A stretch of DNA of 64,000 nt from a virus. Its lineage: Duplodnaviria; Caudoviricetes. Positions 12,494 to 61,976 of this stretch are shown here, in pieces. Each line of letters starts with the position of its first letter. Position 1 is the first letter of the stretch. The position numbers were made by a program, and so were the translations under genes. The stretch lies in IMG/VR virus record IMGVR_UViG_3300038679_000357, positions 160,001 through 224,000 of that record. One strand, given 5' to 3'. The notes under the pieces were generated by a model. The model had not been told where the DNA came from and did not search any database. It was given only the letters and a program-made list of their open reading frames with translations.

Positions 12494-13360
12494 TCACGAA
12501 CCGCTGGAAACGACGACCTTGGCGCAAGCGTAGCTGTTAACCACGACAAAGCCAACTTCTTCGTAAATAACCCAGCCGAGACGAATACGGGACGGGTCGT
12601 CTGCCGGAAGGACAGTGATGTCCTGACGGATAGGCATTGCACCGAGATACTCGGCAGGAGCCAAGACGAACACGGTGTCGGTCGCCATCCTGGAGCTGAC
12701 GTGAATGTCGGCGGTCCAGATGTGCCCGAACAGACCAGTCGTCAGAACCTGACGGGTGGTCGCTTCGTCGTAGACGGTCTTGCCCCAGTTCCTGATGTCG
12801 ATGTAGCGGAATGCATGGCAAACCACTTTACCAACGGTCAGGTCGTGCTGCTCGACCAATCCGAAAGCCTGATTAAGAGCGGTGATCGAAAGCGCACCAC
12901 CAGTGCTGAGCACGGTGTGGTCTGCATCGATAGCGGCATTGATGACGCTGAAGATTTCAGTGTCTTCAACCTTGGCAATTGCTTCTTTCGCCTTGATCTG
13001 AGCGCGGTCGACAATGAAGAACCTACGAGCCTTCACTTCGGACAAACGAACAGTCGGGTGAGTTGCAATTTCGAACGTCGGGACAAGGATTTCCTCGCCT
13101 TCTTCAACCAACTGGGGAACTCCACCGCGACGGGAGATCTTCCAGGCGTTAGCCCGGACATCTTTCTCGTAGCGAGCATAAGCGCCCTGCGGCAATTCAT
13201 CAACCATGAGGAGCTTACGTCCAACCGCCTGGTATTCCAGTGCGCGACGGATCGGCTCGACCATGGCTTGAGCAAGAGCAACACGTCCACCCTCGGATTC
13301 CAAGGACTGGGCGATCAGGATTTCACGCTCCTGATTGACGGACTTTTTATCCATTGACAT
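12494..13360 (-). CDS. Major capsid protein, HK97 fold, no N-terminal delta domain
   Basis: 288 aa; GRVALAQAMVEPIRRALEYQAVGRKLLMVDELPQG...EEGEEILVPTFEIATHP...LGWVIYEEVGFVVVN; strong SD AAGGAAGGTG; biased GC-rich codons; terminator downstream; follows decoration and protease genes. Confidence 0.85.
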   Translation of the reverse strand: MSMDKKSVNQEREILIAQSLESEGGRVALAQAMVEPIRRALEYQAVGRKLLMVDELPQGAYARYEKDVRANAWKISRRGGVPQLVEEGEEILVPTFEIATHPTVRLSEVKARRFFIVDRAQIKAKEAIAKVEDTEIFSVINAAIDADHTVLSTGGALSITALNQAFGLVEQHDLTVGKVVCHAFRYIDIRNWGKTVYDEATTRQVLTTGLFGHIWTADIHVSSRMATDTVFVLAPAEYLGAMPIRQDITVLPADDPSRIRLGWVIYEEVGFVVVNSYACAKVVVSSGS

Positions 13361-19951: not shown

Positions 19952-22900
19952 TTATTCCAATTCGCCAGACTTGATGTACTTGTCTGATTGACGGCTTCCA
20001 ATAGTGAAATGAGAAGCTATTTTCTCAGTCAAGCTTTGCGCCTGATTCTTATTCTCTGGCATACCTTTATCTTCGATTACAACAGGAGTGGTCAAGGTAG
20101 AAGCTGTCTTCACGGTTTTGCCGGAATTCATCTTCGACGCCATTTTTTCCTGTTTATCGAGAGGCATGGTGGACAGAAGATCTACCATATCATCGTACTC
20201 AGACTCAACGATACTTCCATTGCCGAGCATGGTCGCAGCAATTTTGATCGCTTTGTCTCGTCTGGCGGTAGCAATCTTGGAACGATGTTCTTCGAGATTG
20301 GCAGTAACCCTGGTAGTCACTTCAACCTTTTCTGCGTCTTTGTGAGGAGCAGTTGCTTCTTCGCCAGAAGGAATGGAAGATTTTTCATCCCCCATCATAG
20401 CACCATCGCCCTTGCTTGGAACAACAGGTGCTTTTTCTTCGACTGGTTTCTCATCACCCATCGTCGCCTTGCCACGCGAAACGCAATCGCACTCAGATAT
20501 CGGCTTCGCTTCTCCAATAGAATCGCCAGCCGTTACAACGACTGTAATTCCATCAGAACCAGTAGAGGTTGACGAAGTGGCGATATTCCCCGTAATGGAG
20601 GTATTAATATCACCCTTTTTCTCTTCCTCTCCAAGATACTGAACCTTAACTGGGATTACGACCTCATCAGTCGATTTCGGAGCCGCTTCCTTCTCGTTGC
20701 CGAGATATCCATCGTTCTTGGCTTTCGGAATTTCCGGAGCCTTATCGGCTGGAGTAGTGTCCTTCTCCTCTCCCATCATAGCCTTACCGGATGGAATCTT
20801 TGCTTCGTCCTGCAGAAGCTTCTGAACAATCTTCTTGGTCTTCAACTTGTCAGTTTTGACCTTAACTTCATCACATGCCTTCGCCTTTTTTTCGGTTTTA
20901 GCGGTAGCGACACCATCTTCGACCTTCAAATCAGCGATGTTGGTTTCGTCGTCAGAGATCTGCTTCTCTTCGTTAGCTGTTTTCACAGCCTTACTTGGAG
21001 CAACATAACCAGCCATACGGCGCATAACACCTTTACTGAACATACCAGCAAAAGCTTCCATATAGAGGTTTTCATCTTCCTCTGTCTTGAAGCGTTCCTT
21101 GATACAAGCGCATACGTGCTTGGCGCGTTCCTCAGACAAACCGCTCTGACGTTTCTGCAACTTCACACATTCATCCATCGGATCAGCCTTGGTCTGAACT
21201 TCGCAAAGGCGCTTCATGTGCTTAACCTTATCAAGCCCGAAGGTTGAAAGCTGCTTGACAACTGTGTCAGCAAGTTTCTCTCCCTTAAACGGACCGTAGG
21301 ACACAACAGCATCTTTACCGTAGTTTTTAGCTACCCAAGCTTTAGCAGAAGCAACTGGGAATTGAGCCTTAGATGCAGACTTAATCATACGACCAAAGGC
21401 AATATCAGTTGCGAAAGCCTTCCGTGCCTTATTGCAAGATGCGCATTTACGCTTGGAAGGTTTCAAATTCCACTCAACCCTCATCTGTACGTTTTCTGGC
21501 GAATTCGTATCGATGATCAAATCACGCTGACAATGAGTTCCACAAGACGCGCATTTGGTAACATGCGAGCTTGGCTCGCCTTCCGCCGCTTGTTCGCGTC
21601 CACATCCAGGGCAAGCTACCTTGCCTTCACTGAACGCTTTAACAACGCGCCCAAATACCTGTTTATCAACCTTTACGGCTGCTGCAACAGGCATTTCCGG
21701 AAGTTCTGGCTCTTCCATACCATCTTCTTTCTTAGCGTTGTTAAACAACTCTTCAGGATTGAGGATGTCAACGTTGACGTGCATGATGTACTTCGCGCCA
21801 CAGTTATTGCAGTCGAACTGACCGGCATTCTGATCCTTACGACCAGTTTCAGTGTCATCCGCACCGCAAATCGGACAGATCGTGCCTGCCATCTTCTGCT
21901 CGTCGCCAGGAATATCTTCCTCTTCCGACACATCGTCAGTAAGAGTCTGAACGCCACCTTCTTCCGGCATAGCTTCTGGAGCCATGGCACTAGTATCTTC
22001 GGGAGCGGCTACACCGCCACCAGCATTAGGAACGCCAGGAGCACCACCGCCAAACTGAGCGGTCTTTACCTTTTTCTTTGTAGCTGCCATGCCAAGGATA
22101 TCATCAACCGACGTTTTTCCGGGAGCAGAAGCTCCTGGAGTAGACGCAGCACCCAACGCAGGAGCGGCAGGAGCTGGGGCAGGTGCTTCTGGGGCAGGGG
22201 TAGGAGCAGGGGCAGCCATGTCTTCAACACCTGCATCACCACCAAGATCTGTATCAAGGGAGGTGTCTTCCTTCACAGAAGACTTATCTCCGATAGGAAT
22301 TTCAACAGACTCTCCGCCATCAGTTTCTACGGCTATCGTAATGGTCTCACCATCAACAGTTACGTTTACCAAGCTGGCAAACTTCAAGCCACTCTGCTTA
22401 CATGCGGCACGAGCAAATTTGGACGCGATAATATTTCTATCTTCTTTAGACTCCTTACCAGTCAAACCAACCTCAGCCGCAGTCGCCTCAATCATATGAT
22501 CAGCAGCAACCACCTTATTGGACTTAATGTCAGATGCGATTGTTTTCGCTTCTTCCAATTGAGTTTTTGCACTGAAGAATGAATTGATCTGTTCAGTCAT
22601 TGAAGGTTCAAGATTCTCAGTAGGCACAGAAGCCTTGGCGATAATCTGATTAACCTTTTCTTCAACCATGTGCGAAGCGCTATTTGCAACAACCGCATGG
22701 AAGCACTCTACCAAGCACTCAGGATTCAACTCACCAGCCTTAATGGCTTCGGACGCATAAGACACGAGAGCGTCGCGAATGGTCATAGAAGACTGAGACT
22801 TGACGCCTTTTTTGCCCCAATACCCATTTCTTGATGCAAGCGTGACGATATCTTCAGATTTCGAATTATCATTCCACATTTCATAAGCAAAAGCCAATTT

Positions 22901-24799
22901 TGTACTTGACGTTCCGCCAGAGAAGGAGCAAGCTGCCTTCATAACTTGCTCTGGCGTGCTGCCACTGGCAACAACAACCTTGGCAAGAATGTCAGTGCTG
23001 GCTTCCACATGCTTTTGAATGGAAGAGGCAGAGCGAGCCCATGGAGTCTTGCTAAGCTGCTTCTCAGTTACCACGTCTTGTTCTTTGCCAACGCGATCAA
23101 CTTCCAATTGAGATTCCATAACGGCATCAGCTTCTTTACCAGTACGGGGTAGATCACCCTTATCAAGCTGCTTTTCAGTGATAACTTCAGTTGACTTTCC
23201 AGTACGGGACAAATCACCTTTTTCAAGTTGCTTTTCAGTAATGTCAGAAATGTCCTTACCATCCCTTTCTTTTTCAAGCTGTTTTTCCATTACAACATCA
23301 GCTTCTTTGCCTGTGCGAGAAGATTCGAGTTGTGCTTCGTTCGTCTCGTGGAGATCGGCACCCTTGGCTTTTGCCTCCACATTCATTCCCTTAGACATGG
23401 CTTGACCTCCACTTGTCGTTAGATCTTTATTAATAGCTTCTGTGAGATTGTTACTGAAAATTTTCAATTTCTCCTGCCAATTACCATCAAGAACTTCTTT
23501 TGTCCTCTCTCTGTCGCTTGCAGATTTAATTGGCATGCGCCTCATTTCGTCCTCCGTTTGACTCTTTTTAGGCTTGATCGGTCTGGTCAGTTGACTCTTC
23601 GCAGCCGGTCTTGTAGCTTCTTTGAAATCACTTAATGCCGAAGGAGCCGACGGAGGCTCTACAATAGGTTTTTCTGTATTTGTTGTTCCAGCAATATCAG
23701 CTTCTTGCGAAACGGGCTGGGTAGCAGGAGCGCCAGGAGCTGGAGCAGGAGCTGGAGGCGCAGACTGATCAGGAGAAACTCCAGGAACAGGCTGTCCAGA
23801 GGACTCAGGCAACTGACCATAACCAGCCTGCACTAGCTGGTCTACGAAATCCTGCAAACTTGCAAGAATTTCAACAAGATCGCTGGCAAACTCCATTTCA
23901 ACATTAGCACGATTCTGAATCAATTTAACAGAAACTTGTTCAATTGTCGTAAGACATTGATTGAGTTGTTCTACGTCTTGCTGAGAAGCATTCTTTTCAA
24001 GTGACGCGGTACGAACAACGGAAATGTTGTTGTAGCACGTAGAAGCAGCCTTAACAAGACTTTCGTACGATCCAGCAGCCTTGTCCTCACAGCCACATTG
24101 CCCAAACTCGCTGCCATCATAAATCTGATCAATCCTGCAACTCGTACACGCAGGATCGGCAACGCCACTTAGTTCAATAAAGCGCAAGTCATAATTGTGT
24201 TCAAAAACCAACTCAGCTTTAACTTCGCGAGTTTTTCCGGTTCTTACATTTTTCACAGATCCGGTAAACTTACGCCCTTTAAAGTTCTTGATATGTGAGC
24301 AATATTCGTCAACAGTTGATGCCCTATTACCACACAGCGAACATTCAGAGTAGCCGACAGACGCCCCCATACTGACGCCAGTCATATACTCTTGTTCTAT
24401 TCCACGGCACAAATTCGGATATGCGTCTCGATCAACAAACGCCACTACATAAACAGACTTCTCATCTTCAATCCATTCCGCCCATACAATCTTACCTTTT
24501 GCGCGTTCTATATTTTGATTATCATGATTAGTGAAGAATGGCACGCCAACAAATGTTTGATAACTTTTCTTCAACTCTGAAGCGGAAAAAGAGTCGCCAT
24601 TGTTATTGGGAATATCAGCCTCGATCGCCTTGGCGCGGAAAAAAAGAGCATTTTTATGCTTCTTCATTTCTGCAACGATTACATTTCTCGCTTCGTTTTC
24701 AATCCCCTTTTTAGAAGATGCTGTTCTAATGAAGCCACCTTCGTAGGATTCGACTTTGTCAATCGAAGTAAAAGAAAAACTAGCTGATTTGTTGATCAT
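19952..24799 (-). CDS. Prohead protease (HK97/assemblin-like) fused to zinc ribbons, repeats and a scaffold-like C-terminus
   Basis: PNNNGDSF, FFTNHD (catalytic His), GVSMG (catalytic Ser), CSLCG; later CPICG/CNNCG and CPGCG/CASCG; located between portal and MCP. Start set at MINKSAS (SD AGAGGGG). Confidence 0.8.
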   Translation of the reverse strand: MINKSASFSFTSIDKVESYEGGFIRTASSKKGIENEARNVIVAEMKKHKNALFFRAKAIEADIPNNNGDSFSASELKKSYQTFVGVPFFTNHDNQNIERAKGKIVWAEWIEDEKSVYVVAFVDRDAYPNLCRGIEQEYMTGVSMGASVGYSECSLCGNRASTVDEYCSHIKNFKGRKFTGSVKNVRTGKTREVKAELVFEHNYDLRFIELSGVADPACTSCRIDQIYDGSEFGQCGCEDKAAGSYESLVKAASTCYNNISVVRTASLEKNASQQDVEQLNQCLTTIEQVSVKLIQNRANVEMEFASDLVEILASLQDFVDQLVQAGYGQLPESSGQPVPGVSPDQSAPPAPAPAPGAPATQPVSQEADIAGTTNTEKPIVEPPSAPSALSDFKEATRPAAKSQLTRPIKPKKSQTEDEMRRMPIKSASDRERTKEVLDGNWQEKLKIFSNNLTEAINKDLTTSGGQAMSKGMNVEAKAKGADLHETNEAQLESSRTGKEADVVMEKQLEKERDGKDISDITEKQLEKGDLSRTGKSTEVITEKQLDKGDLPRTGKEADAVMESQLEVDRVGKEQDVVTEKQLSKTPWARSASSIQKHVEASTDILAKVVVASGSTPEQVMKAACSFSGGTSSTKLAFAYEMWNDNSKSEDIVTLASRNGYWGKKGVKSQSSMTIRDALVSYASEAIKAGELNPECLVECFHAVVANSASHMVEEKVNQIIAKASVPTENLEPSMTEQINSFFSAKTQLEEAKTIASDIKSNKVVAADHMIEATAAEVGLTGKESKEDRNIIASKFARAACKQSGLKFASLVNVTVDGETITIAVETDGGESVEIPIGDKSSVKEDTSLDTDLGGDAGVEDMAAPAPTPAPEAPAPAPAAPALGAASTPGASAPGKTSVDDILGMAATKKKVKTAQFGGGAPGVPNAGGGVAAPEDTSAMAPEAMPEEGGVQTLTDDVSEEEDIPGDEQKMAGTICPICGADDTETGRKDQNAGQFDCNNCGAKYIMHVNVDILNPEELFNNAKKEDGMEEPELPEMPVAAAVKVDKQVFGRVVKAFSEGKVACPGCGREQAAEGEPSSHVTKCASCGTHCQRDLIIDTNSPENVQMRVEWNLKPSKRKCASCNKARKAFATDIAFGRMIKSASKAQFPVASAKAWVAKNYGKDAVVSYGPFKGEKLADTVVKQLSTFGLDKVKHMKRLCEVQTKADPMDECVKLQKRQSGLSEERAKHVCACIKERFKTEEDENLYMEAFAGMFSKGVMRRMAGYVAPSKAVKTANEEKQISDDETNIADLKVEDGVATAKTEKKAKACDEVKVKTDKLKTKKIVQKLLQDEAKIPSGKAMMGEEKDTTPADKAPEIPKAKNDGYLGNEKEAAPKSTDEVVIPVKVQYLGEEEKKGDINTSITGNIATSSTSTGSDGITVVVTAGDSIGEAKPISECDCVSRGKATMGDEKPVEEKAPVVPSKGDGAMMGDEKSSIPSGEEATAPHKDAEKVEVTTRVTANLEEHRSKIATARRDKAIKIAATMLGNGSIVESEYDDMVDLLSTMPLDKQEKMASKMNSGKTVKTASTLTTPVVIEDKGMPENKNQAQSLTEKIASHFTIGSRQSDKYIKSGELE
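20380..20800 (-). repeat. Imperfect coding repeats with a (M/L)G(D/E/N)EK core in the protease/scaffold C-terminus
   Basis: KAMMGEEK, GYLGNEK, QYLGEEEK, KATMGDEK and GAMMGDEK are visible in the translation. Confidence 0.7.
23055..23345 (-). repeat. About six imperfect 15-18-aa coding repeats with an (T/M)EKQL(E/D)..R.G core
   Basis: NEAQLESSRTG, MEKQLEKERDG, TEKQLEKGDLSRTG, TEKQLDKGDLPRTG, MESQLEVDRVG, TEKQLSK. Confidence 0.85.
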
Positions 24800-27700
24800 T
24801 TTTCCCCTCTTTAGGTCCAATCATCTTTTTGATCATTCTTGTGACTTCCATGGATTCGCTCGTTTTTCCTGCTTTAGCCAGAGTAATAGAAACACCAGCC
24901 ATTCTCAATAACGCTTCCTTCATTATACTACGAACTCTTCCAGACCCGCCGAAGATATTAAATATATCCTCTTCATCTTCATCCGTTACACTAGTAGACG
25001 TCTCAGGAGGCTGTTGAGCTGTCTGTTGCGTTGCTGGCGAAACAGTTGACTGAAGAGGGATTTGCTCAACTGCCTGTTCGTCATCTTCGTATGCGTTATC
25101 ATACTCATCATCAGCAAAAAATGACTGAGGTTGAGATTCATCATCAATCTGAGTGACAACTTCTTCTCCTGTCTCTGAAACAGGAACATCGACTGTTTGA
25201 ACTTGGTCTTCCACAGAAGATTGATCTTGCCCATCCACCACAGAAGGTTGATCTTCTGTGGAAGGTTGAATTTCTACAGAAGATTGATCTTGCCCCTCCG
25301 ACATTGCTGGTATTTGTTCTTCCGCTGATTCATCCCCACTACGAGGCTCAACAGATCCAATCTCGCCATCCAAGCTTTCATTGAATGACATTCCATCTCC
25401 AACTCTATTAACAACGTCATTTTTGCCACCAGCACCTGGAATGACGCTACTTACCTCACTAGCATTGGTATTCAACGCTGTAGAAGCAACTTCATCAATA
25501 ATATTATTAATCAACCCTCTTTTCATGTCGCTGAAAATCAATCTTATTGCATCTCTTTCCGCCGACTCTTTGCAAAGTACGATTTTTGAAGTGATAGGGT
25601 AATATTCAGGATTTTCCAGTGCAGACGACATACCAGATGTCTTGAGATTACTGTAATCAGTCTCAAGACCAGTACCGATCATTAAAAACGAAATCAACGA
25701 CTCGTCACCACGACTTGGGCTAGAAAGATTAAGAGAAAGGAAATCAACAATAGGAACATGTCGTACTTCCATCTCCCCGCTCACCTCTCTTTCCACTGTA
25801 TATGTTGGTTGCTCATTCCTCCACCAAAAACCTTTTCTACTAACGACTAACGGCAATATATTATATAATATGCCTCTTGCGTCATCGATATCGCTTAACG
25901 AACGATACTGTTGGTTGACATACGAATCATTGGACGCTTCCTGAGCCCAAATGCCTCTAGTGCCACGAGACTGTAGAGACTCATTGTTGGCAAAAGAAAA
26001 ACTAACGTCACCGTCATTAGAATAACGCGCCTTTATTGGGCTTTCTCCATAAAAGCCACATGCAATAAACTTCAAAAACTCACCGTATGTAGATTCGCCA
26101 GTTATTGCCGTATCTATAATTGGCTCAAATTCAGACTCTTCATCCTTTCCTATAGAATTTTTTTGATCATTATTTATGCGATCAGGAGTTTTTCCAGAAC
26201 CTACCGACGGATCGTAATCAGGAAGAGAAAACGATGATTTTGCTACTGAAAAAGCTTGATTAACTAACTTGTTGTAATTTTTAATAGACAACGATATGTC
26301 GCCAATTCTAACTGGATAATAGACAACAGGAGTTCTTCCGCCAAGACGTCTTTCAAAATAAACGCCTGGAATAATATCTGAACCATCTTTTATTGATTTG
26401 AGCTTATCGATAGAAAATGATTTTTTTGTCTTTTTCCCACCAATAACAATTGCATCGTTCGGCAACTCAGTAATACCGCCAGTTGCCGGTGGAAAATATC
26501 CTTTTTTAACGAACAATTCACCCCCAACAACCCCATTCAAAAGCAATTCAGTTACATTAAGCCCCTCGTAATCCCCACCAATTTTTTCTTTTTCTTTTTC
26601 ACGAGTAGCAATTGCTCTAACTACAGTGCTGGAGTGAGCATCTACAAGGTGTCCACTCAGTGAGCTTGAACTTATTAGATTGTCGTCATCCGCCGTAGAC
26701 ATAAATGTAGCGCACGCTGGGTTATCTATCCTGTTTACTTTGTTTCTTCTATCGCTATATTCAGGCGAATTAAGACAATAATCAGCTATAGCCTCAAGAT
26801 CATCTATATCGATAGTATATTCAGTCTTCTTATTTTTCTCACAATGTAGTCTCAATGAATCGATTGCCGACATTGCTCCACTTGCCTGACCGCCATTTTG
26901 ATCCGAGTCTTCATGGAATACTTCTTTGCTTCCCTTGATGATATCAAGCAACAACCCACGATACACATGCGGTGAAGTAGTTTTAAGTTTCCATTCTTCC
27001 CCCATGGTATAGCGAAGGGCGAGCAATGCTCCTTTTTTAGTAAAGACAACATTTGGAGATATGGCGTCATTGCTAATAGACGGAATTATATTTGACAACA
27101 TTGAATTAGATTGCCAAAAAATACTATTGGCAGATTCATCTTGACAATATTTTTTCTTAAACTCGTCGATGGAAATGAATGAATATTCACTCCCGTCATA
27201 ATCCTCACTCAATTTATTGGCAATGTCTTCTCTGTTATTTTTACGACTAGAACTTATGACGTCTCTTACCGTCGATATCTTTGGCTTCAAAACCAGATTA
27301 GAAATCAACGAATTATCGATCGGGTCTTTTCCCGGAAGAGATAAGCGACCAAAATACCAAGAGCCAAGAGTTTCTAAAAATCTACGTACCTGTTTGCCGC
27401 TCTTCGCCTTTAAGAACTTCGTGCCTTCACGAGAATATGCCGCTGGTATTGCTTCATACAAACAACGAGAATAAATATGTTTTTGTATGCGAAATTGTTT
27501 TATGAATTCGTCGAATTGTTCTTTTGGACGAGCGTTTAAACCATCTGTAACGTTCGATTGATTGTCTGGATCAAGTAAATTTTTAGATGAAAGATAAGCC
27601 AGCATGTCTTTTTCAAGCTTACTTACCTCTTCTTCTATATTATTAACATTTGAAGAAACCATTCTTTTAGCCATTATCGACACATCAGATGGTGTCACTG

Positions 27701-29111
27701 ACATTTTACTTAATTCAGTAAAATTTTTATCAGACATATATGGTCCAAGGAATAATGCCCTAAGACCATATTCCGTCCTGCTGAACTCAAGAAACAAATC
27801 AATTGGGACGTCTCTTATCTCACTTGCAAGACCGCCGTTGGCTCTAATCTTTTTCTTTCTATACGTTTCCTTCTCTTTCATAGACTTTTGCAGTAGCCAT
27901 ACCATTCCGCGCTCAGTCTGACTCATTGACACAATACTAGCGTACTTACCCATTGTATCATTGCCAGAATGCCCCATAGCCACAACAGCACTTTTTGCAT
28001 TCTCTATATGGTCAATGGAAGTAACAGCCGCACAAAGAATCATGACGTCACTATATCGATCAGATGAAGTAACAAGACTTTCAACTGAATCAGCAGATAA
28101 GTTCATATTTCTATTACGATAAAAACGATTCGCAAAACTATAGAAAACTTTTCGCATCAATATTCCGTCTTTGGTCAACCCAACGCCACCCCTTGGATTA
28201 TTTAATGTAGCGCTTTGCTCAATGGTTGACACATCATATGTAACTGGATTTCTATCACTAACAGAAATACCAGAAAGCTTATCTCTATATTTCTTTACGA
28301 TTGAAATAAGCCTTCCAATAAGTAGATCATTCTCAATCCTGCTTACATCTTCGTCGCTATTGTTAGGTGGATTGGCACCTCTACGAGCCTGCGAAGCCAC
28401 GTCAGATATTAGGTCTTCTAAAACAATTTTTTCTGGGTTGTCAATGATCAATATCGTTTTCACCGCAGACAGCAGCATGTTCTTTCTTATCCCAACAGCC
28501 AACTTGTGAGCAATATTTAATTTTTCCTGATCATCAATTGCTCTCCTCCTACCATTAACTTCAACCCCCCATACGGAATCACCAATTTCATCTATAAGAT
28601 CTTTCCCAATCAGCTCTTCTATTTTACTAACGTGAACAGCAAGACTGGCTTTAGAAGTTTTCTTTTTCCCCATGGCTGTCTTGATTGTAGATAAAGAGGA
28701 AGCTTCCTTAGTGTTATCTTCAGCCTCTCTTTCAGTCCTCCACTTCTCTTCCCTTTCTGAAACATTTTTCAAGTCAGTCATCGTATAATGAGGTAGTGAT
28801 TTTGGACGCGGAACGCCCCAGGTCTCATTCGCATAAGCAAACGCATCAGTAATACTGTCGAACTTCTTTCCGCCCGCTGGCCAACTGTCAGGAAGTTTTC
28901 TTACTCCGGCAAACCACTTTTTTTCATGCTTTTTCACACCAGACGGACTAATTACAACATTCCACTCATCACTCCCGCCAATTTCCTTTCCCTCAAACCT
29001 ATAATACGACTTAGGTCCAATAATGTCATTATACATGTCTTTAAGGAACTGAGTTTTATCTGTATACGACTCATTCCATGAAATTTTTTTGTCGTCTTTC
29101 AATTTTCTCAT
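24780..29111 (-). CDS. Large (1443 aa) hypothetical protein between portal and protease, probable internal head protein
   Basis: Long ORF coupled to the portal stop (ATGA overlap); acidic Gln/Asp-rich C-terminal linker; no recognisable catalytic motif. Confidence 0.55.
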   Translation of the reverse strand: MRKLKDDKKISWNESYTDKTQFLKDMYNDIIGPKSYYRFEGKEIGGSDEWNVVISPSGVKKHEKKWFAGVRKLPDSWPAGGKKFDSITDAFAYANETWGVPRPKSLPHYTMTDLKNVSEREEKWRTEREAEDNTKEASSLSTIKTAMGKKKTSKASLAVHVSKIEELIGKDLIDEIGDSVWGVEVNGRRRAIDDQEKLNIAHKLAVGIRKNMLLSAVKTILIIDNPEKIVLEDLISDVASQARRGANPPNNSDEDVSRIENDLLIGRLISIVKKYRDKLSGISVSDRNPVTYDVSTIEQSATLNNPRGGVGLTKDGILMRKVFYSFANRFYRNRNMNLSADSVESLVTSSDRYSDVMILCAAVTSIDHIENAKSAVVAMGHSGNDTMGKYASIVSMSQTERGMVWLLQKSMKEKETYRKKKIRANGGLASEIRDVPIDLFLEFSRTEYGLRALFLGPYMSDKNFTELSKMSVTPSDVSIMAKRMVSSNVNNIEEEVSKLEKDMLAYLSSKNLLDPDNQSNVTDGLNARPKEQFDEFIKQFRIQKHIYSRCLYEAIPAAYSREGTKFLKAKSGKQVRRFLETLGSWYFGRLSLPGKDPIDNSLISNLVLKPKISTVRDVISSSRKNNREDIANKLSEDYDGSEYSFISIDEFKKKYCQDESANSIFWQSNSMLSNIIPSISNDAISPNVVFTKKGALLALRYTMGEEWKLKTTSPHVYRGLLLDIIKGSKEVFHEDSDQNGGQASGAMSAIDSLRLHCEKNKKTEYTIDIDDLEAIADYCLNSPEYSDRRNKVNRIDNPACATFMSTADDDNLISSSSLSGHLVDAHSSTVVRAIATREKEKEKIGGDYEGLNVTELLLNGVVGGELFVKKGYFPPATGGITELPNDAIVIGGKKTKKSFSIDKLKSIKDGSDIIPGVYFERRLGGRTPVVYYPVRIGDISLSIKNYNKLVNQAFSVAKSSFSLPDYDPSVGSGKTPDRINNDQKNSIGKDEESEFEPIIDTAITGESTYGEFLKFIACGFYGESPIKARYSNDGDVSFSFANNESLQSRGTRGIWAQEASNDSYVNQQYRSLSDIDDARGILYNILPLVVSRKGFWWRNEQPTYTVEREVSGEMEVRHVPIVDFLSLNLSSPSRGDESLISFLMIGTGLETDYSNLKTSGMSSALENPEYYPITSKIVLCKESAERDAIRLIFSDMKRGLINNIIDEVASTALNTNASEVSSVIPGAGGKNDVVNRVGDGMSFNESLDGEIGSVEPRSGDESAEEQIPAMSEGQDQSSVEIQPSTEDQPSVVDGQDQSSVEDQVQTVDVPVSETGEEVVTQIDDESQPQSFFADDEYDNAYEDDEQAVEQIPLQSTVSPATQQTAQQPPETSTSVTDEDEEDIFNIFGGSGRVRSIMKEALLRMAGVSITLAKAGKTSESMEVTRMIKKMIGPKEGKNDQQIS

Positions 29112-31465
29112 TTTTTATCTCCCTGACTACGTACAGCATCGCCATGCAGACTCTTGATAAGCTCTCTCTTTCTAACAATTTCCTTCTCAATCCTGTCAAT
29201 AACTGCTCCAATATTATCTTTTATTTCGTCGTCTTTGAATCGAACAACAGTCCAACCGGCATTTCTCAATAGAGAATCTCGTTTATGGTCTCTAGCTACT
29301 TGTTCTGGAGCATTATGAAATGTTCCGCCATCAGCCTCTATATCAAGCTTTATCTGCGGAAACGCAATATCCATCAAATATGGTCTAGGTCCAAGCTTAA
29401 CTTCGTACCCACATACCCACTTGTATGGGATGCGACCAACCCTAGACCTTTCAACAAGTCCTTTCTCAAGATCTATCTCTATGCTTGTCTTCCAGATACG
29501 ACCTTTTTCATCTCGCTTAAATCCATCGCCACCATTAGATTTTTCAGAAGAACTATGTCCACCGCCTGGTTGCTGTTGAACTCTTGTATGATCAACTTTT
29601 TTGCGACTTTTTTCTTTCATGACTTTACCGCCGTAATCGGCGATATTGACTGAATTTTTTGACGTAGATGCAGCTACCGGCGGGGCTCCGCCAGGAGGCG
29701 GGGCTCCACCCATTTCTCCACCCGGAGGAGCACCACCCGGCGCACCGCCACCTCCAAGATCAGGAGGCAACCCTCCACCAAGGTCAAGTCCGCCTCCGCC
29801 GCCACCTCCACCAAGAGCCCCCTCAAGCCCGCCTCCGCCACCTGCTCCGCCTTCTCCTCCTTGAGGAGCGTCAGAAAGAGATTCGATTCTTTCATAGCGT
29901 ATTTGTTCCGCTTCGATATCGGGATCAATTTGATATTCTTCAAGAAGACGACGCCTTGAAATAACTCCCTTATCGTACAGCGACATAAGATTTTGACGCT
30001 CTTGGTTTACGTCACGTAAATTAAGTGCGTTCCACCGTATTTTTGGAACGATATAAACTTTTTCTCCCCATTCATTCTCTTTGACAAAGCCATTCATCTT
30101 GGCGATAGGTCCAAAAATCTTACTCTCAGCCCATCTTGATAGTTCATTGCGCCATTCATCGAGACGCTTAATCATTACTTCCGCTCCGATAGCTGCGGAC
30201 GAATAAACCGGACCCTCTGCATTCAAAAGCGCTTTGTTTATCCCAAGACCATCAAGTATTTCCTGGTTAATAAACTCCCACTCTGTACTCAACTGCAATA
30301 TCTGTCCATTAGCTCCAACCCACGACATATCAAAAGCGTGATGTGTTACAATTACTAAATTAGGATCATTTGCTGTAGCTTGCAACTGAGCCTGTACATT
30401 AGAAATATCCATTGGCGACGCTGGACGCTCTTCCGTACCAACTTTGACAACTTTAATTGGAATGATCATTCGTTCCGCAACAATCCACTGAGCGGTCATC
30501 AATTTTGTCTTATACGCCAAGATCGGGAATAAACGACGGATCATAGAGATCCCAAAACGTCGGTATCCACTTTCACCATATTTCAAATGACTGATGCAAA
30601 AATTATCAAGTGGAATTGGTCTTCCCTCCATAACCATTTTGGCTATGTTTGCGGCAAGCTTTCCACTTCCATTACCCTTCACCATCTGTTTTAATTCATC
30701 ATCTGGTATCATGCAAATGGAATTTTCTGGGGACAACGGATTAGTGAACACCTCAATGAAATCTGGATTTAAGACAACAAGTCTCTTAAACGTACCGCCT
30801 TCATGGTCGCAAACCTGACCATTATATAATCCAGTTCCATTGCATTGATCGCAATCCACCTCAAGAAACGGGAAACAATCACCAAGTAAATGAACCTCAT
30901 GATTAATGATTCTAAACCACTTCATGAGATCAATTTTCTCACAGAACTTTTCAAAATATTGCTTCACATACCGATCTTCACACTCAATTTCAAAGCCAGA
31001 AGAAATCGGAAATCTGGAGTAAAAATCTATTGCAGCAGCAACTCGCGGTTCATTTTCATAGAAAAAGCGGCTCCACTGATATATTTCACGACGCTTACTT
31101 GGAATCTGCCAATTAATTGGGGTGTATACTGGAGAGAAAAAGTTCGGTTGTCCGAACGAGATATTCAAGTTTCCACCAGCCTGACGAGTATGTCCTTGAA
31201 ACGCTCCGTTCGCCGAAACAGACCCAACATAATTTTGATACACTTCTTCATTTCCGACTAAGGGCTTCAATGACATAGCAGCATTTTTTGCAACTTGCGG
31301 AACGTCAGACAATGGAATTCCGCGCCTCGCGGCGCGGAAATGACTTTCAAGAGATGTGGTTATAAGTGGAACGCTTTCATTGCTGATCATTTTCAGTCCC
31401 TTTTGATCGTAAATGTTAATCGCAGAGTCCGCATTCCGCCCCGAAGCCAGCAAGTTCTTTTTCAT
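29108..31465 (-). CDS. Portal protein with C-terminal DUF559/Vsr-like endonuclease domain
   Basis: Portal-like FFYENEPRVAAAIDFYSRFP...LGDCFPF...VVLNPDFI...PLDNFCISHLK...YRRFGISMIRRLF; Gly/Pro linker (~29670-29870); then YLMDIAFPQIKLDIEADGGTFH...DHKRDSLLRNAGWTVVRF. Confidence 0.8.
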   Translation of the reverse strand: MKKNLLASGRNADSAINIYDQKGLKMISNESVPLITTSLESHFRAARRGIPLSDVPQVAKNAAMSLKPLVGNEEVYQNYVGSVSANGAFQGHTRQAGGNLNISFGQPNFFSPVYTPINWQIPSKRREIYQWSRFFYENEPRVAAAIDFYSRFPISSGFEIECEDRYVKQYFEKFCEKIDLMKWFRIINHEVHLLGDCFPFLEVDCDQCNGTGLYNGQVCDHEGGTFKRLVVLNPDFIEVFTNPLSPENSICMIPDDELKQMVKGNGSGKLAANIAKMVMEGRPIPLDNFCISHLKYGESGYRRFGISMIRRLFPILAYKTKLMTAQWIVAERMIIPIKVVKVGTEERPASPMDISNVQAQLQATANDPNLVIVTHHAFDMSWVGANGQILQLSTEWEFINQEILDGLGINKALLNAEGPVYSSAAIGAEVMIKRLDEWRNELSRWAESKIFGPIAKMNGFVKENEWGEKVYIVPKIRWNALNLRDVNQERQNLMSLYDKGVISRRRLLEEYQIDPDIEAEQIRYERIESLSDAPQGGEGGAGGGGGLEGALGGGGGGGGLDLGGGLPPDLGGGGAPGGAPPGGEMGGAPPPGGAPPVAASTSKNSVNIADYGGKVMKEKSRKKVDHTRVQQQPGGGHSSSEKSNGGDGFKRDEKGRIWKTSIEIDLEKGLVERSRVGRIPYKWVCGYEVKLGPRPYLMDIAFPQIKLDIEADGGTFHNAPEQVARDHKRDSLLRNAGWTVVRFKDDEIKDNIGAVIDRIEKEIVRKRELIKSLHGDAVRSQGDKK

Positions 31466-32075
31466 TCATTTCTTCACCATCCTTCGGGGATGGCTTTCCG
31501 GTCTTGCACTTACTACACTCATTTTCCGGCTCACTTTCCTTAACGAGTTGATTTCCATCATCAACAACAAGTCCAGGAATGTCAACCGATGCATAGATAG
31601 AAGTCAAATCAGGATTTTTTACAGCGATCTCTTCGAGCATGACAATATCCTCGACCGATACACCAGTCGCCAGAGAGATGGAGGCAGTTTTTCTTGGTGA
31701 AAGAGTGTTACCAGCCATAACTACTGGAGAAACCATACAGAACGCCTTTCCAATAGCTTGTTCTTTAGTTGCCTCAGACTTAAAGTCTGTTGTACTTCCT
31801 GGATTGCGCTCCTCTTCCAAGCGACGCTCTGTAGAAAACTCTTCTGGACGAGGGAGAGAAGTTCTCATTTTTTCATCTCGACGCATCGGGTGTCCACCGT
31901 CATTGCTTTCCGTGTCGAGCTTTCTTTCTTCTCCAAGTTTGGCATTTCCATACCACTCCATGCGCTCATCAACAGAAACCTCAACGTCTTCATCCTTAAC
32001 AACAGAAACCTCGCCATCACGATTCACTCTGTCGATGCCAACTTCATTATGATTTCTGACTGCAAAGATTTTCAT
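31416..32075 (-). CDS. Hypothetical charged protein (head region)
   Basis: 219-aa ORF containing TERRLEE-like motifs and CxxC pairs near the C-terminus. Confidence 0.55.
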   Translation of the reverse strand: MKIFAVRNHNEVGIDRVNRDGEVSVVKDEDVEVSVDERMEWYGNAKLGEERKLDTESNDGGHPMRRDEKMRTSLPRPEEFSTERRLEEERNPGSTTDFKSEATKEQAIGKAFCMVSPVVMAGNTLSPRKTASISLATGVSVEDIVMLEEIAVKNPDLTSIYASVDIPGLVVDDGNQLVKESEPENECSKCKTGKPSPKDGEEMNEKELAGFGAECGLCD

Positions 32076-60194: not shown

Positions 60195-61976
60195 TTACAT
60201 AGTCCTACCAACATTTGCCAAAACAGAAGATGGAAGAGAATTAACGATTCCATAACCGGACGCCATCCAAGTTGCTCCTGCGATACAGTCGGCTAAATCA
60301 TCCGTCGGAAAATCAGATTTCACATCCTTATCTATCGACACCCCTCTTGTTGTCGACTTAACCTTTAAGTTAAGTAATTCTCCGTATATGTAATCATCGT
60401 GGTACATCCAAAACTCATCGGCATTCATTAGATCTTCAAGATTTTTGTAAAAAGAGGCTTTTCCGCCTCTCGAAAACGAAAGTCTTGTTGCAATGATTCC
60501 CTTCCCCTTTAAAAACGCTATACTATGAACAGAATTCCATAAATCGTAAGAAATTCTCATGGTCTTGAATTTTCGACAGATATCGTAAACTTCCGCATCA
60601 ATTGCTTGAAAATCAAGCAACTGACCTCCTGGTTTCCACATCCGATGTGTAGCCAAATAACACCGATGCCTCTTTTCTCCACGACGATTGACATACTTCG
60701 TCTTACCTACAACTGCTAATGCATAGTTATCCCTGGTTGAGGCTGGATCGACATGGATATAATATTCAACATGCGGTTCTGCTCCTGTGCGCATGAACAT
60801 AAACGTTTTTATGGCGTTAGAAACGGTATCTTTAGCAAAATAATTTCTCTTTGATCCGCTCTTTCTCCACATCGACCCATATTCTGTATCGAACGACTCC
60901 TGGTCTCTTTTTCTTTCTTTTGTTAGAAACTCACAATCATATGGAAGATCCTCGTTTATATCCCATGTAGCCAACCTAAAAGACAAGGTCTTGCGAAATT
61001 CATCATCCACACTGTTGCCATTTTCCCATATCTCATAAAAAATACCACTAGGATAATTTACTGAAGAAATTTCAACTAGTCTACCGTCACCCTTAATCGT
61101 GAATTTTGCGATAGACGGAATGAGTGCGTTGTAAAAAGTTCTTCCAGAAACGACTGGGTTTTCATCGTAAAATGCCAACTCGTCAAACAAAATAGCAGCA
61201 GCAGAATAACCACGTAAGGTATCTGGATTGCTATGTCCGCAAACCAATACAATTGATCCTTTTACAGAAATATTGGTGGTCGGATCAGATTTGTTCCGAA
61301 TATCCGCATCAGTAAGAAGACGGATTTCAGTAGATAAGGCATCGCCATCGATTCTACCGCGAAAAAACTTACATTTTCTCAATCGATTTTTGACCTGTGA
61401 GAATAAACGTTGTGACTGAGGTCCAGAATTAGCTACATTGATAATGGCGATTTCTTCGTCATCAGGAATACCATAAAACTTATACGGATCACCAATCTTT
61501 ATGAGCTTATATGCCTCATACGCAACAATAATCGAAGTCATAATGGTTTTTGATGCGCGACGACCAAGCGCCAGGTGTAATTCATTGAATGTAAAATTCG
61601 AAGGTTCTCCTGGATTTTTACCATCCCTCATTTTTCTAAGTCGATGAATTACGTTATCAAGTTGTTTGTCGTGTAACCATTTTTCCTCTTCCGGCGACAA
61701 TGTTACGTTTTCATTTCCCCTTGTCCCCATATAGAAGCACTTTAAAATAACTCGCTGCCCAAGAAAAAGGGGGAAATTATGTTGAGGAAGATCAAGAAAA
61801 TCTGGATGGTTACAGAAGGTTATTATGTCAACTATATAATCAAACTGATCAACAGAAGTTTGCTCAACAGATAGTCCGGCATCAGCCCGGACCTTGTTCA
61901 TCAATACTTCTAGTGGAGCAGAAACTTGTCCATCCTGATGTCTGTCAGAATGCGTGTTTTTCTTTCTTGGGGGCAT
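60195..61976 (-). CDS. terL: Terminase large subunit
   Basis: ATPase LALGRRASKT (Walker A variant), IINVANSGPQSQ, TLRGYSAAAILFDELAF (Walker B), LVEISS (coupling motif); RNase H-like nuclease IHVDPAST...DDLADCIAG. Confidence 0.92.
   Translation of the reverse strand: MPPRKKNTHSDRHQDGQVSAPLEVLMNKVRADAGLSVEQTSVDQFDYIVDIITFCNHPDFLDLPQHNFPLFLGQRVILKCFYMGTRGNENVTLSPEEEKWLHDKQLDNVIHRLRKMRDGKNPGEPSNFTFNELHLALGRRASKTIMTSIIVAYEAYKLIKIGDPYKFYGIPDDEEIAIINVANSGPQSQRLFSQVKNRLRKCKFFRGRIDGDALSTEIRLLTDADIRNKSDPTTNISVKGSIVLVCGHSNPDTLRGYSAAAILFDELAFYDENPVVSGRTFYNALIPSIAKFTIKGDGRLVEISSVNYPSGIFYEIWENGNSVDDEFRKTLSFRLATWDINEDLPYDCEFLTKERKRDQESFDTEYGSMWRKSGSKRNYFAKDTVSNAIKTFMFMRTGAEPHVEYYIHVDPASTRDNYALAVVGKTKYVNRRGEKRHRCYLATHRMWKPGGQLLDFQAIDAEVYDICRKFKTMRISYDLWNSVHSIAFLKGKGIIATRLSFSRGGKASFYKNLEDLMNADEFWMYHDDYIYGELLNLKVKSTTRGVSIDKDVKSDFPTDDLADCIAGATWMASGYGIVNSLPSSVLANVGRTM

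What the first reader, a model, noticed from the sequence alone, without database searches (positions are those of the whole stretch)
29160..29900. Portal protein fused via a Gly/Pro linker to an intact-looking DUF559/Vsr-like endonuclease
Seen: after the portal core comes a ~65-residue G/P linker, a KNSVNIA..KVMK segment, and then E(IDL)E...YLMDIAF...DIEADGGTFH...RD..L...GWTVVRF, all in one ORF with no intein motifs. Established: Vsr-like/EDxHD nucleases occur as homing endonucleases; portal C-termini face the capsid interior and portals are dodecamers. Inference: either a domesticated homing endonuclease or a functional ring of 12 nuclease/DNA-binding domains at the DNA gate (end processing, headful sensing, or released cargo). 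I know of no described portal-nuclease fusion.
Basis: partly seen in the sequence, partly recalled or inferred. Interest (0 to 1): 0.75.

Follow-up and report, generated by a model that had tools for sequence, protein, structure and literature searches.

The report
Megaphage portal with built-in nuclease
The DNA-entry (portal) protein of an uncultivated groundwater giant phage ends in an intact-looking DNA-cutting domain on a long floppy tether; every complete portal in a large clade of such phages has it, and I found no paper describing it.

Summary
ORF 29108-31465(-), probable start 31390, encodes a portal core, a Gly/Pro tether of about 60 residues, a conserved basic helix and a DUF559/Vsr-fold nuclease in one frame. 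A contig from a second groundwater sample reproduces the junction.

The fusion is neither an artefact nor a sporadic selfish insert:
- Of 238 related portals with a complete core, 221 carry the nuclease.
- All 111 nuclease-bearing representatives form one clade. Phage G-like portals outside it have only the Gly/Pro tail.
- The two apparent losses inside the clade are a low-coverage contig and a frameshift.
- The catalytic residues E663, D699, E710, D712, H717, D726 and D730 are invariant or nearly so.
- Synonymous sites are saturated while the domain keeps 66-81% identity.
- It is the only DUF559 in the genome and has no targeting domain. The terminase keeps its own nuclease.

The tether leaves the portal crown, so twelve copies should hang inside the capsid (inferred). 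The function is untested. My best guess is a nicking or end-processing enzyme acting on DNA at the inner portal mouth. Release by the head protease is a live alternative.

I found no paper and no GenBank phage with this fusion. This scan noted the same family earlier on other DNA (e1-3451887, e1-935331).

The parts
29108..31390 (-). Portal-nuclease gene (760 aa from the probable start M26; the longest ORF runs to 31465, 785 aa; residue numbers in this report follow the 785-aa ORF, P0001)
   Evidence: Homologue N-termini and an AAGGG 8 nt upstream of ATG 31390.
29861..31183 (-). Portal core (residues ~95-535): wing, stem, clip and crown
   Evidence: phrog_16240 E 2.8e-46. 32% identity to phage G gp14. 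The AF2 model aligns to solved portals at Z 16-20 over residues ~100-535, up to the end of their crowns.
29666..29845 (-). Gly/Pro-rich flexible tether (residues 541-600)
   Evidence: Read directly from the sequence. pLDDT is about 30. In 221 relatives the stretch between core and nuclease has a median of 117 aa and is 39% Gly+Pro. Nuclease-less relatives, including phage G, also have a G/P tail.
29573..29665 (-). Conserved basic helix motif (residues 601-631): [FY]-G-G-[KR]-[VI]-L-K-x-K-[TS]-R-[ED]-[KR]. R621 is invariant. A semi-conserved [LI]-[ST]-A-[EQ] lies 7-10 residues upstream in most relatives.
   Evidence: Predicted helix with pLDDT 86-92 in the domain model. No known fold covers it.
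29231..29515 (-). DUF559/Vsr-fold nuclease domain (residues 651-745) with catalytic-type residues E663, D699, E710, D712, H717, D726, R729, D730
   Evidence: PF04480 E 7.6e-12. PDB profile hits 3hrl 2.7e-11 and 3r3p 4.6e-5. Fold matches: 3hrl Z 13.4 rmsd 1.8 A over 94/94, 3r3p Z 12.8, Vsr Z 10-10.6. Residue conservation.
29111..29230 (-). Long C-terminal helix (residues 746-785), part of the DUF559 fold plus an extension
   Evidence: AF2 helix 752-783, pLDDT >90.
24780..29111 (-). Context: 1443-aa gene of unknown function. It starts in a 4-nt ATGA overlap with the portal stop, and the same overlap is seen in close relatives.
19952..24820 (-). Context: 1622-aa head-maturation protease polyprotein with nine copies of hydrophobic-[KR]-[TS]-A-[SQN]
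   Evidence: phrog_18299 E 1.2e-18. Motif counts here and in relatives.
60195..61976 (-). Context: large terminase (593 aa) with its own RNase H-like nuclease domain
   Evidence: phrog_2 E 1.7e-24. The family profile hits the G20c and P74-26 TerL nuclease domains. D410, D478 and D559/D560/D563 are invariant.

Best explanation
SHOWN: This is a genuine portal gene. Its product continues, in frame, from the last crown helix into a disordered Gly/Pro tether of about 60 residues, then a conserved basic helix, then a complete Vsr/DUF559-fold nuclease. The module was acquired once in a phage G-related lineage of uncultivated huge phages. It has been kept in every complete portal of that clade, with its catalytic residues under strong purifying selection. 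It is not a homing endonuclease cassette, and it does not replace the terminase nuclease.

INFERRED: The tether starts where solved portals end their crown, which faces the capsid interior. A dodecameric portal would therefore hang twelve nuclease domains just inside the DNA gate, each able to reach a few tens of nanometres. I think the module most likely works as a Mg-dependent nickase or end-processing enzyme on the phage's own DNA as it passes or rests at the inner mouth of the portal. It might trim or grip the first-entering end, or nick DNA to relieve torsion or to clear structures that hinder packaging of a 250-500 kb genome. The portal supplies the substrate, and the basic helix supplies non-specific DNA contact.

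NOT SETTLED: It is unknown whether the module stays tethered in the mature virion or is cut loose by the head protease.
For: Architecture and fold.

Fixation:
- 221 of 238 complete-core portals carry the nuclease.
- All 111 nuclease-bearing 50%-identity representatives form one clade (support 0.95), with 14 nuclease-less portals, including phage G gp14, outside it.
- The two 'losses' inside the clade are a 1.8-kb coverage-2 contig and a frameshift in a G-run with the DUF559 ORF directly downstream.

Selection:
- Where aligned, E663 is kept in 199/199, D699 in 219/219, H717 in 229/229, D712 in 226/229, D726 in 225/229 and D730 in 226/229.
- These map onto Vsr E25, D51, H64, H69 and D97 and their I-Bth0305I equivalents, as described in PMC3239194.
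- Among four close relatives dS is saturated, while nuclease dN is 0.17-0.32.

Not selfish:
- It is the only DUF559 in the 255-kb genome.
- It has no NUMOD or HTH targeting domain.
- No free-standing close relative was found.
- Inteins in the same portals are patchy, with 123 of 221 carrying 1-5.

Not a terminase substitute: TerL keeps invariant nuclease aspartates.

Precedent for accessory nucleases at the portal vertex:
- T4 gp4, a REase-fold head-completion nuclease, as summarised in PMC7824862.
- From my own knowledge, HK97 gp74 HNH and the binding of T4 endonuclease VII to gp20.
Against: No activity, substrate or virion location has been measured for any member, and no member is cultured. 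An unregulated nuclease sitting in tightly packed DNA would be harmful, so specificity or inhibition has to be assumed. Interior placement is inferred from monomer fold alignment, not from an assembled structure. A conserved peptide between tether and nuclease partly resembles the candidate protease site that is repeated in the head-protease polyprotein, so the domain may not stay tethered. Invariant 'catalytic' residues could also serve metal-dependent binding rather than cleavage.
Confidence: 0.45

Rival explanations
1. Packaged cargo. The portal tail serves as a capsid-targeting handle that loads exactly twelve nuclease modules into each prohead. The head-maturation protease then cuts between tether and basic helix. 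The free ~180-aa nuclease is ejected with the DNA to attack host DNA or defence elements.
For: - A head-maturation protease polyprotein lies two genes downstream. It has nine copies of hydrophobic-[KR]-[TS]-A-[SQN], and the motif is conserved in relatives' polyproteins.
- Most portal tails have [LI]-[ST]-A-[EQ] 7-10 residues before the invariant FGGK motif, and 7 of 221 have the exact [KR][TS]A[SQN] there, e.g. IKTAQ.
- Nuclease-less relatives share a PP[IV]AA[SN] motif just after their G/P tail.
- Phage G virion proteomics reports several nucleases in particles (bioRxiv 10.1101/2024.12.16.628780).
Against: This window's portal has no exact copy of the polyprotein motif; it reads PPVAASTSK. 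The cleavage motif is itself only a hypothesis. A folded 180-aa protein has to pass through a DNA-filled channel. No host-targeting feature is visible.
Confidence: 0.25
2. Non-cutting DNA clamp or valve. The Vsr-like domains bind DNA at the crown without cutting it in vivo. They would retain or sense DNA, acting as a headful sensor, a plug against leakage or an anchor for the leading end. The metal site would be kept for phosphate binding.
For: - From my own knowledge, Vsr stays bound to its nicked product. One search lists entry 1cw0 only as Vsr in complex with duplex DNA.
- Twelve tethered domains sit at the gate (inferred).
- An aromatic residue (F716, [FWY] in nearly all) precedes H717 at the spacing of Vsr W68, which intercalates into DNA.
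Against: The whole catalytic set, including the general-base His, is fully conserved over a deep clade. That is more than pure binding usually preserves. Portals of related phages manage without any such domain.
Confidence: 0.12
3. Selfish or recently domesticated homing endonuclease that fused to the 3' end of an essential gene and persists by drive, not by benefit to the phage.
For: Vsr-like EDxHD enzymes are homing endonucleases in phages (PMC3239194). The same portal genes are hot spots for inteins with LAGLIDADG endonucleases. The weak hits in GenBank phages include homing endonucleases.
Against: - There was a single gain, and no true loss was seen in 111 representative clusters.
- Catalytic residues are invariant and dS is saturated.
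- It has no DNA-targeting domain.
- It is the only copy in the genome.
- No free-standing relatives were found.
- Once fixed, no empty target sites would remain to drive against.
Confidence: 0.06
4. Assembly or sequencing artefact joining two ORFs.
For: G-rich linkers are error-prone. One relative (L025) is split by a frameshift in a G-run.
Against: The junction is identical in contigs from independent samples, and more than 200 independent assemblies have the same in-frame architecture.
Confidence: 0.01

Closest known systems
Portal protein gp14 of Bacillus/Lysinibacillus phage G (Donellivirus gee), with related Portal_Mu-like and lambda gpB-like portals
   Same: It is the best cultured relative, with 32% identity over core residues 101-526. 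It has the same portal fold, and its C-terminal tail is also Gly/Pro-rich.
   Different: Phage G gp14 (648 aa) ends after the G/P tail and has no nuclease. It falls outside the nuclease-bearing clade.
DUF559 (PF04480), e.g. Neisseria gonorrhoeae NGO0050, PDB 3hrl
   Same: Same fold (Z 13.4, rmsd 1.8 A, 94 of 94 residues, 28% identity). The Pfam score is above the cut-off.
   Different: DUF559 proteins are small free-standing proteins, or they are fused to helicase or HTH domains in bacteria. Here the domain is the C-terminus of a virion portal, preceded by a family-specific basic helix.
I-Bth0305I and the EDxHD homing endonucleases (PDB 3r3p; PMC3239194)
   Same: Same catalytic domain fold (Z 12.8) and the same E, D, H and D catalytic residues. 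Both are phage-encoded.
   Different: I-Bth0305I has an N-terminal NUMOD/HTH targeting region and sits in a group I intron with a patchy distribution. The portal domain has no targeting region and is fixed in its clade.
E. coli Vsr very-short-patch-repair endonuclease (PDB 1vsr, 1cw0)
   Same: Same core fold (Z 10-10.6). The equivalents of E25, D51, H64, H69 and D97 are kept, and an aromatic residue sits at the W68 spacing.
   Different: There is no Zn-binding Cys/His cluster, since the domain has a single Cys. No mismatch-repair context is present. Sequence identity is only ~20%.
Accessory nucleases of the packaging or head-completion machinery: T4 gp4 (REase fold), HK97 gp74 (HNH), and T4 endonuclease VII bound to portal gp20
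   Same: Each is a second nuclease, besides the terminase, working at the portal vertex. T4 gp4 is cited through PMC7824862; the other two are from my own knowledge.
   Different: Those are separate proteins acting outside or at the neck side of the portal, and they have other folds. Here the nuclease is covalently part of the portal and leaves from the interior crown.

Membership tests
Tailed-phage portal protein | Portal fold (wing, stem, clip, crown) | tested here: met
   The AF2 model residues ~100-535 align to more than 40 solved portals at Z 16-20.4. phrog_16240 E 2.8e-46.
Tailed-phage portal protein | Sits in a head-morphogenesis module with terminase, prohead protease and major capsid protein | tested here: met
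   Protease polyprotein at 19952-24820, MCP at 12494-13360 (phrog_2522, E 2.4e-67) and TerL at 60195-61976.
Tailed-phage portal protein | Dodecameric ring at one capsid vertex | not testable with these tools
   Assumed from family knowledge. No assembly was modelled.
DUF559 (PF04480) | Score above Pfam's gathering cut-off | tested here: met
   45.5 bits against 20.6, covering profile positions 44-108 only. The N-terminal half is confirmed by structure: 3hrl aligns 94/94 residues.
Vsr-like (EDxHD-type) PD-(D/E)xK nuclease active site | Conserved Glu, Asp, His and Asp catalytic residues | tested here: met
   E663, D699, E710, D712, H717, D726 and D730 are invariant or >=95% conserved in up to 229 sequences. 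Mapping to I-Bth0305I and Vsr.
Vsr mismatch-repair endonuclease proper | Structural Zn site (Cys/His cluster after the catalytic His) | tested here: not met
   The domain sequence has one Cys and no His cluster. I-Bth0305I also lacks this site.
EDxHD homing endonucleases | N-terminal sequence-reading DNA-binding region (NUMOD/HTH) | tested here: not met
   Pfam finds nothing between the portal core and DUF559. That region is a G/P linker plus one basic helix.
EDxHD homing endonucleases | Mobile context (intron, intein or free-standing gene) with patchy distribution | tested here: not met
   It is an in-frame terminal domain, present in every complete member of one clade. No intein motifs are found in this copy.
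Any nuclease | Demonstrated DNA cleavage | not testable with these tools
   Needs a biochemical assay.

The most novel reading that the evidence does not exclude
The twelve tethered Vsr-like domains are an active, regulated part of the DNA-packaging and ejection machine of a whole megaphage lineage. They would form a built-in nickase or end-holding device at the inner mouth of the portal, for example a swivel that relieves torsion, or an anchor for the leading end of a 250-500 kb genome. That would be a new functional component of the portal vertex.
Probability: 0.25. Interest if true: 0.85.

Novelty: new variant of a known kind. Interest (0 to 1): 0.62.

Why it matters
Portals are treated as passive gates and sensors, and the only nuclease of the packaging motor is thought to sit in the terminase, outside the capsid. 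Here a clade of at least 111 clusters at 50% identity, from genomes up to about 0.5 Mb, has kept a catalytically intact nuclease welded to the interior end of the portal. That implies DNA chemistry inside or at the inner mouth of the capsid that current packaging models do not include.

The module is short and should be testable as a recombinant protein even though no host is cultured. The clade also gives a clean natural contrast between a fixed, selected nuclease domain and patchy selfish inteins in the same gene.

Tried and rejected
- Terminase substitution: I tested whether the portal nuclease replaces a lost terminase nuclease. It does not. TerL (60195-61976) is full length, and its family profile hits solved TerL nuclease domains with invariant aspartates. 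Pfam Terminase_6N and 6C searches of the genome found nothing, and tblastn with phage G TerL found nothing. Only phrog_2 located the gene.
- Dimer prediction: two copies of the module (residues 595-785) gave 'no answer' (score 0.02). This is no evidence either way.
- Close relatives in IMG/VR: a single-protein query found none. The alignment query found 17 loci.
- Free-standing relatives of the module: the word-index search found none. Its sensitivity is limited.
- dN/dS: synonymous sites are saturated even among the closest four genes. Only a bound can be given (dN 0.17-0.32 with pS above 0.75 in most pairs), not a ratio.
- Protease cleavage: the exact polyprotein motif is absent from this portal, and only partial or lineage-specific matches occur in relatives. 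Cleavage stays open.
- Protease type: Pfam gives no family for the protease domain or for the 1443-aa neighbour.
- Literature: 'portal protein' with DUF559, with 'very short patch', or with nuclease-domain and jumbo-phage terms gave nothing relevant. Two jumbo-phage overviews do not mention it.
- PADLOC: only weak generic REase-type hits.
Full report
**What is there**

The window is part of a 255-kb IMG/VR virus record (97% complete by CheckV, labelled 'provirus'). It was cut from a contig on record as 340,706 bases, and the sequencing runs that hold it are groundwater metagenomes.

The minus-strand ORF 29108-31465 (785 aa, P0001) matches portal families. The best is phrog_16240 at E 2.8e-46 over residues 95-464. 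At its C-terminus it matches Pfam DUF559 with 45.5 bits against a cut-off of 20.6, at residues 696-763.

It is followed by NIADYGGKVMKEKSRKK and then by the nuclease motifs. No intein family hits this copy.

The likely start is M26 (ATG at 31390). Homologues begin there, an AAGGG lies 8 nt upstream, and the longer ORF would overlap the upstream gene by 50 nt.

**It is not an artefact**

The probable source run covers the gene in one contig at depth 20.6 without differences. Contigs from two other groundwater samples cover 29426-29966 and 29507-29722, which is tether, basic helix and nuclease start, with no mismatch or gap.

**The fusion is a clade character**

- A word-index search returned 265 relatives. 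Almost all of the best 120 carry PF04480, on contigs up to 524 kb.
- An exhaustive search with the portal core alone (residues 1-540) against 1.84 billion 50%-identity representatives gave 341 proteins at E <= 1e-30.
- With HMMs of the core and of the nuclease, 221 of 238 proteins with a complete core carry the nuclease.
- On a maximum-likelihood tree of 127 complete cores rooted on phage G gp14, all 111 nuclease-bearing representatives form one clade (support 0.95). All 14 genuinely nuclease-less portals lie outside it.
- The two nuclease-less tips inside the clade are artefacts. One comes from a 1.8-kb contig at coverage 2.4. The other has a frameshift in a G-run at the start of the linker, with the DUF559 ORF directly downstream.
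- All 15 full IMG/VR loci have the fused gene.
- Phage G gp14 is the best cultured relative (32% identity in the core). It has a Gly/Pro-rich tail of about 110 residues but no nuclease.
- No record among 50,697 GenBank phages has the fusion.

**The domain looks catalytically competent and is under selection**

- An alignment of 102 C-terminal modules (29-74% identical to this one) has invariant R621, E663, D699, E710, D712, G713, H717, R729, D730, G737, W738, R742 and F743.
- Over 229 sequences, where aligned, E663 is kept in 199/199, D699 in 219/219, H717 in 229/229, D712 in 226/229, D726 in 225/229 and D730 in 226/229.
- The profile hits PDB 3hrl (DUF559, E 2.7e-11) and 3r3p (I-Bth0305I catalytic domain, E 4.6e-5).
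- The AF2 model (pLDDT 85.9) superposes on 3hrl (Z 13.4, rmsd 1.8 A, 94/94), 3r3p (Z 12.8) and Vsr (Z 10-10.6).
- Following the I-Bth0305I paper (PMC3239194), D699 corresponds to Vsr D51, D712 to H64, H717 to H69, D726 to D97 and E663 to E25. E710 is the extra acidic residue at the Vsr F62 position.
- By spacing, the conserved aromatic before H717 sits where Vsr W68 intercalates into DNA.
- Among the four closest genes (79-85% identical in the core), synonymous sites are saturated. Nuclease dN is 0.17-0.32 and amino-acid identity is 66-81%.

**It is not a homing endonuclease, and not a stand-in for the terminase**

- It is the only DUF559 in the genome.
- It has no NUMOD or HTH region.
- No free-standing close relative was found.
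- Real selfish elements in the same genes are patchy. Of the 221 portals, 123 carry one to five inteins, and some reach 3003 aa.
- The large terminase (60195-61976, phrog_2) is full length. Its family profile matches the solved nuclease domains of phages G20c and P74-26, with invariant D410, D478 and D559/D560/D563.

**Where the domain sits**

In the full-length model the core (residues ~120-535, pLDDT mostly 75-93) aligns to more than 40 solved portals (Z 16-20.4), up to the last ordered crown residues of those chains. Residues 536-605 are disordered, with pLDDT about 30. In solved portals the crown faces the capsid interior (established knowledge). The tether, basic helix and nuclease should therefore hang inside the head, twelve per particle. 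This is an inference.

**The peptide between tether and nuclease**

Across 119 tails anchored on the motif, the consensus runs as follows:
- G-rich tail, then P-h-h-A-[KST]-[ST];
- then [LI]-[ST]-A-[EQ]-[VI]-A-[DN]-P-S-[QE];
- then [FY]-G-G-[KR]-[VI]-L-K-x-K-[TS]-R-[ED]-[KR].

The basic part is a confident helix that no known fold covers. I read it as a DNA-contact arm, which is an inference.

The head-protease polyprotein two genes downstream (phrog_18299) contains nine hydrophobic-[KR]-[TS]-A-[SQN] motifs. The same motif recurs at conserved places in relatives' polyproteins.

Seven of 221 portal tails have that exact motif, e.g. IKTAQ, several of them at the [ST]-A-[EQ] position. This window's portal has only PPVAAS. 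Distant nuclease-less portals have RPP[IV]AA[SN]. Cleavage there is possible but unproven.

**Interpretation**

The data establish a fixed, selected, apparently active nuclease module on the inner end of the portal.

- My preferred mechanism (0.45) is action in cis on the phage's own DNA at the inner portal mouth, as nicking or end processing and holding.
- Release as ejected cargo after protease cleavage is the main rival (0.25).
- A non-cutting clamp (0.12) and a selfish element (0.06) follow.

Accessory nucleases at the portal vertex have precedents: T4 gp4 via PMC7824862, and HK97 gp74 and T4 endonuclease VII with gp20 from my own knowledge. None of them is part of the portal chain. A dimer prediction gave no answer.

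**Novelty**

I found no paper describing a portal-Vsr/DUF559 fusion. Earlier agents of this scan reported the same family on other DNA (e1-3451887, e1-935331), and my results agree with theirs. I class it as a new variant of a known kind.

Noticed in passing
relatives P0123-P0244; L008, L010-L012, L014-L016: The portal genes of this clade are very rich in inteins. 123 of 221 complete portals have their core split into 2-6 pieces by LAGLIDADG/Hint-type inserts, and the proteins reach up to 3003 aa. This window's copy has none. TerL relatives also carry inteins (P0359, P0372, P0374, P0385).
   Followed up: partly
L025:4440-4640: In one relative the portal and nuclease are split by a frameshift in a G-run (GGTGGCGGTGGGGGCGC) at the start of the Gly-rich linker. 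This could be a recurrent homopolymer error or real slippage that would yield short and long portal forms.
   Followed up: partly
window 19952-24820 (-), and the homologous ORFs in L003-L016 and L020-L022: The 1622-aa head-protease polyprotein carries nine hydrophobic-[KR]-[TS]-A-[SQN] motifs. Relatives keep the same motif at corresponding places (e.g. MIKTAS, MVRTAA, LFKSAS, MLKTAQ). They are candidate self-cleavage sites of an unclassified protease that has no Pfam hit.
   Followed up: partly
window 29108-29111; L020:10289-10292; L021:7896-7899; L023:2667-2670: The portal stop overlaps the start of the next gene (1381-1543 aa, no known family) in a conserved 4-nt ATGA. This suggests translational coupling of the portal with a giant head-module protein.
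   Followed up: no
P0245, P0253, P0262; phage G gp14, L001:5809-7752: Nuclease-less portals outside the clade end with a G/P tail, a PP[IV]AA[SN] motif and a short amphipathic helix. The long flexible tail therefore predates the nuclease and may have its own role in head assembly.
   Followed up: no
window 31391-31465: The longest ORF's first 25 codons overlap the upstream gene (31416-32075). The database gene call (P0002, 734 aa) starts later still. The start supported by homologues is ATG 31390.
   Followed up: yes
whole record (G000, 255 kb); source contig on record as 340,706 bases: IMG/VR labels the record 'provirus', although its relatives are 300-520 kb free phage contigs. The label may be a trimming artefact of a huge-phage contig. 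The runs that hold the stretch are groundwater metagenomes from four studies.
   Followed up: no
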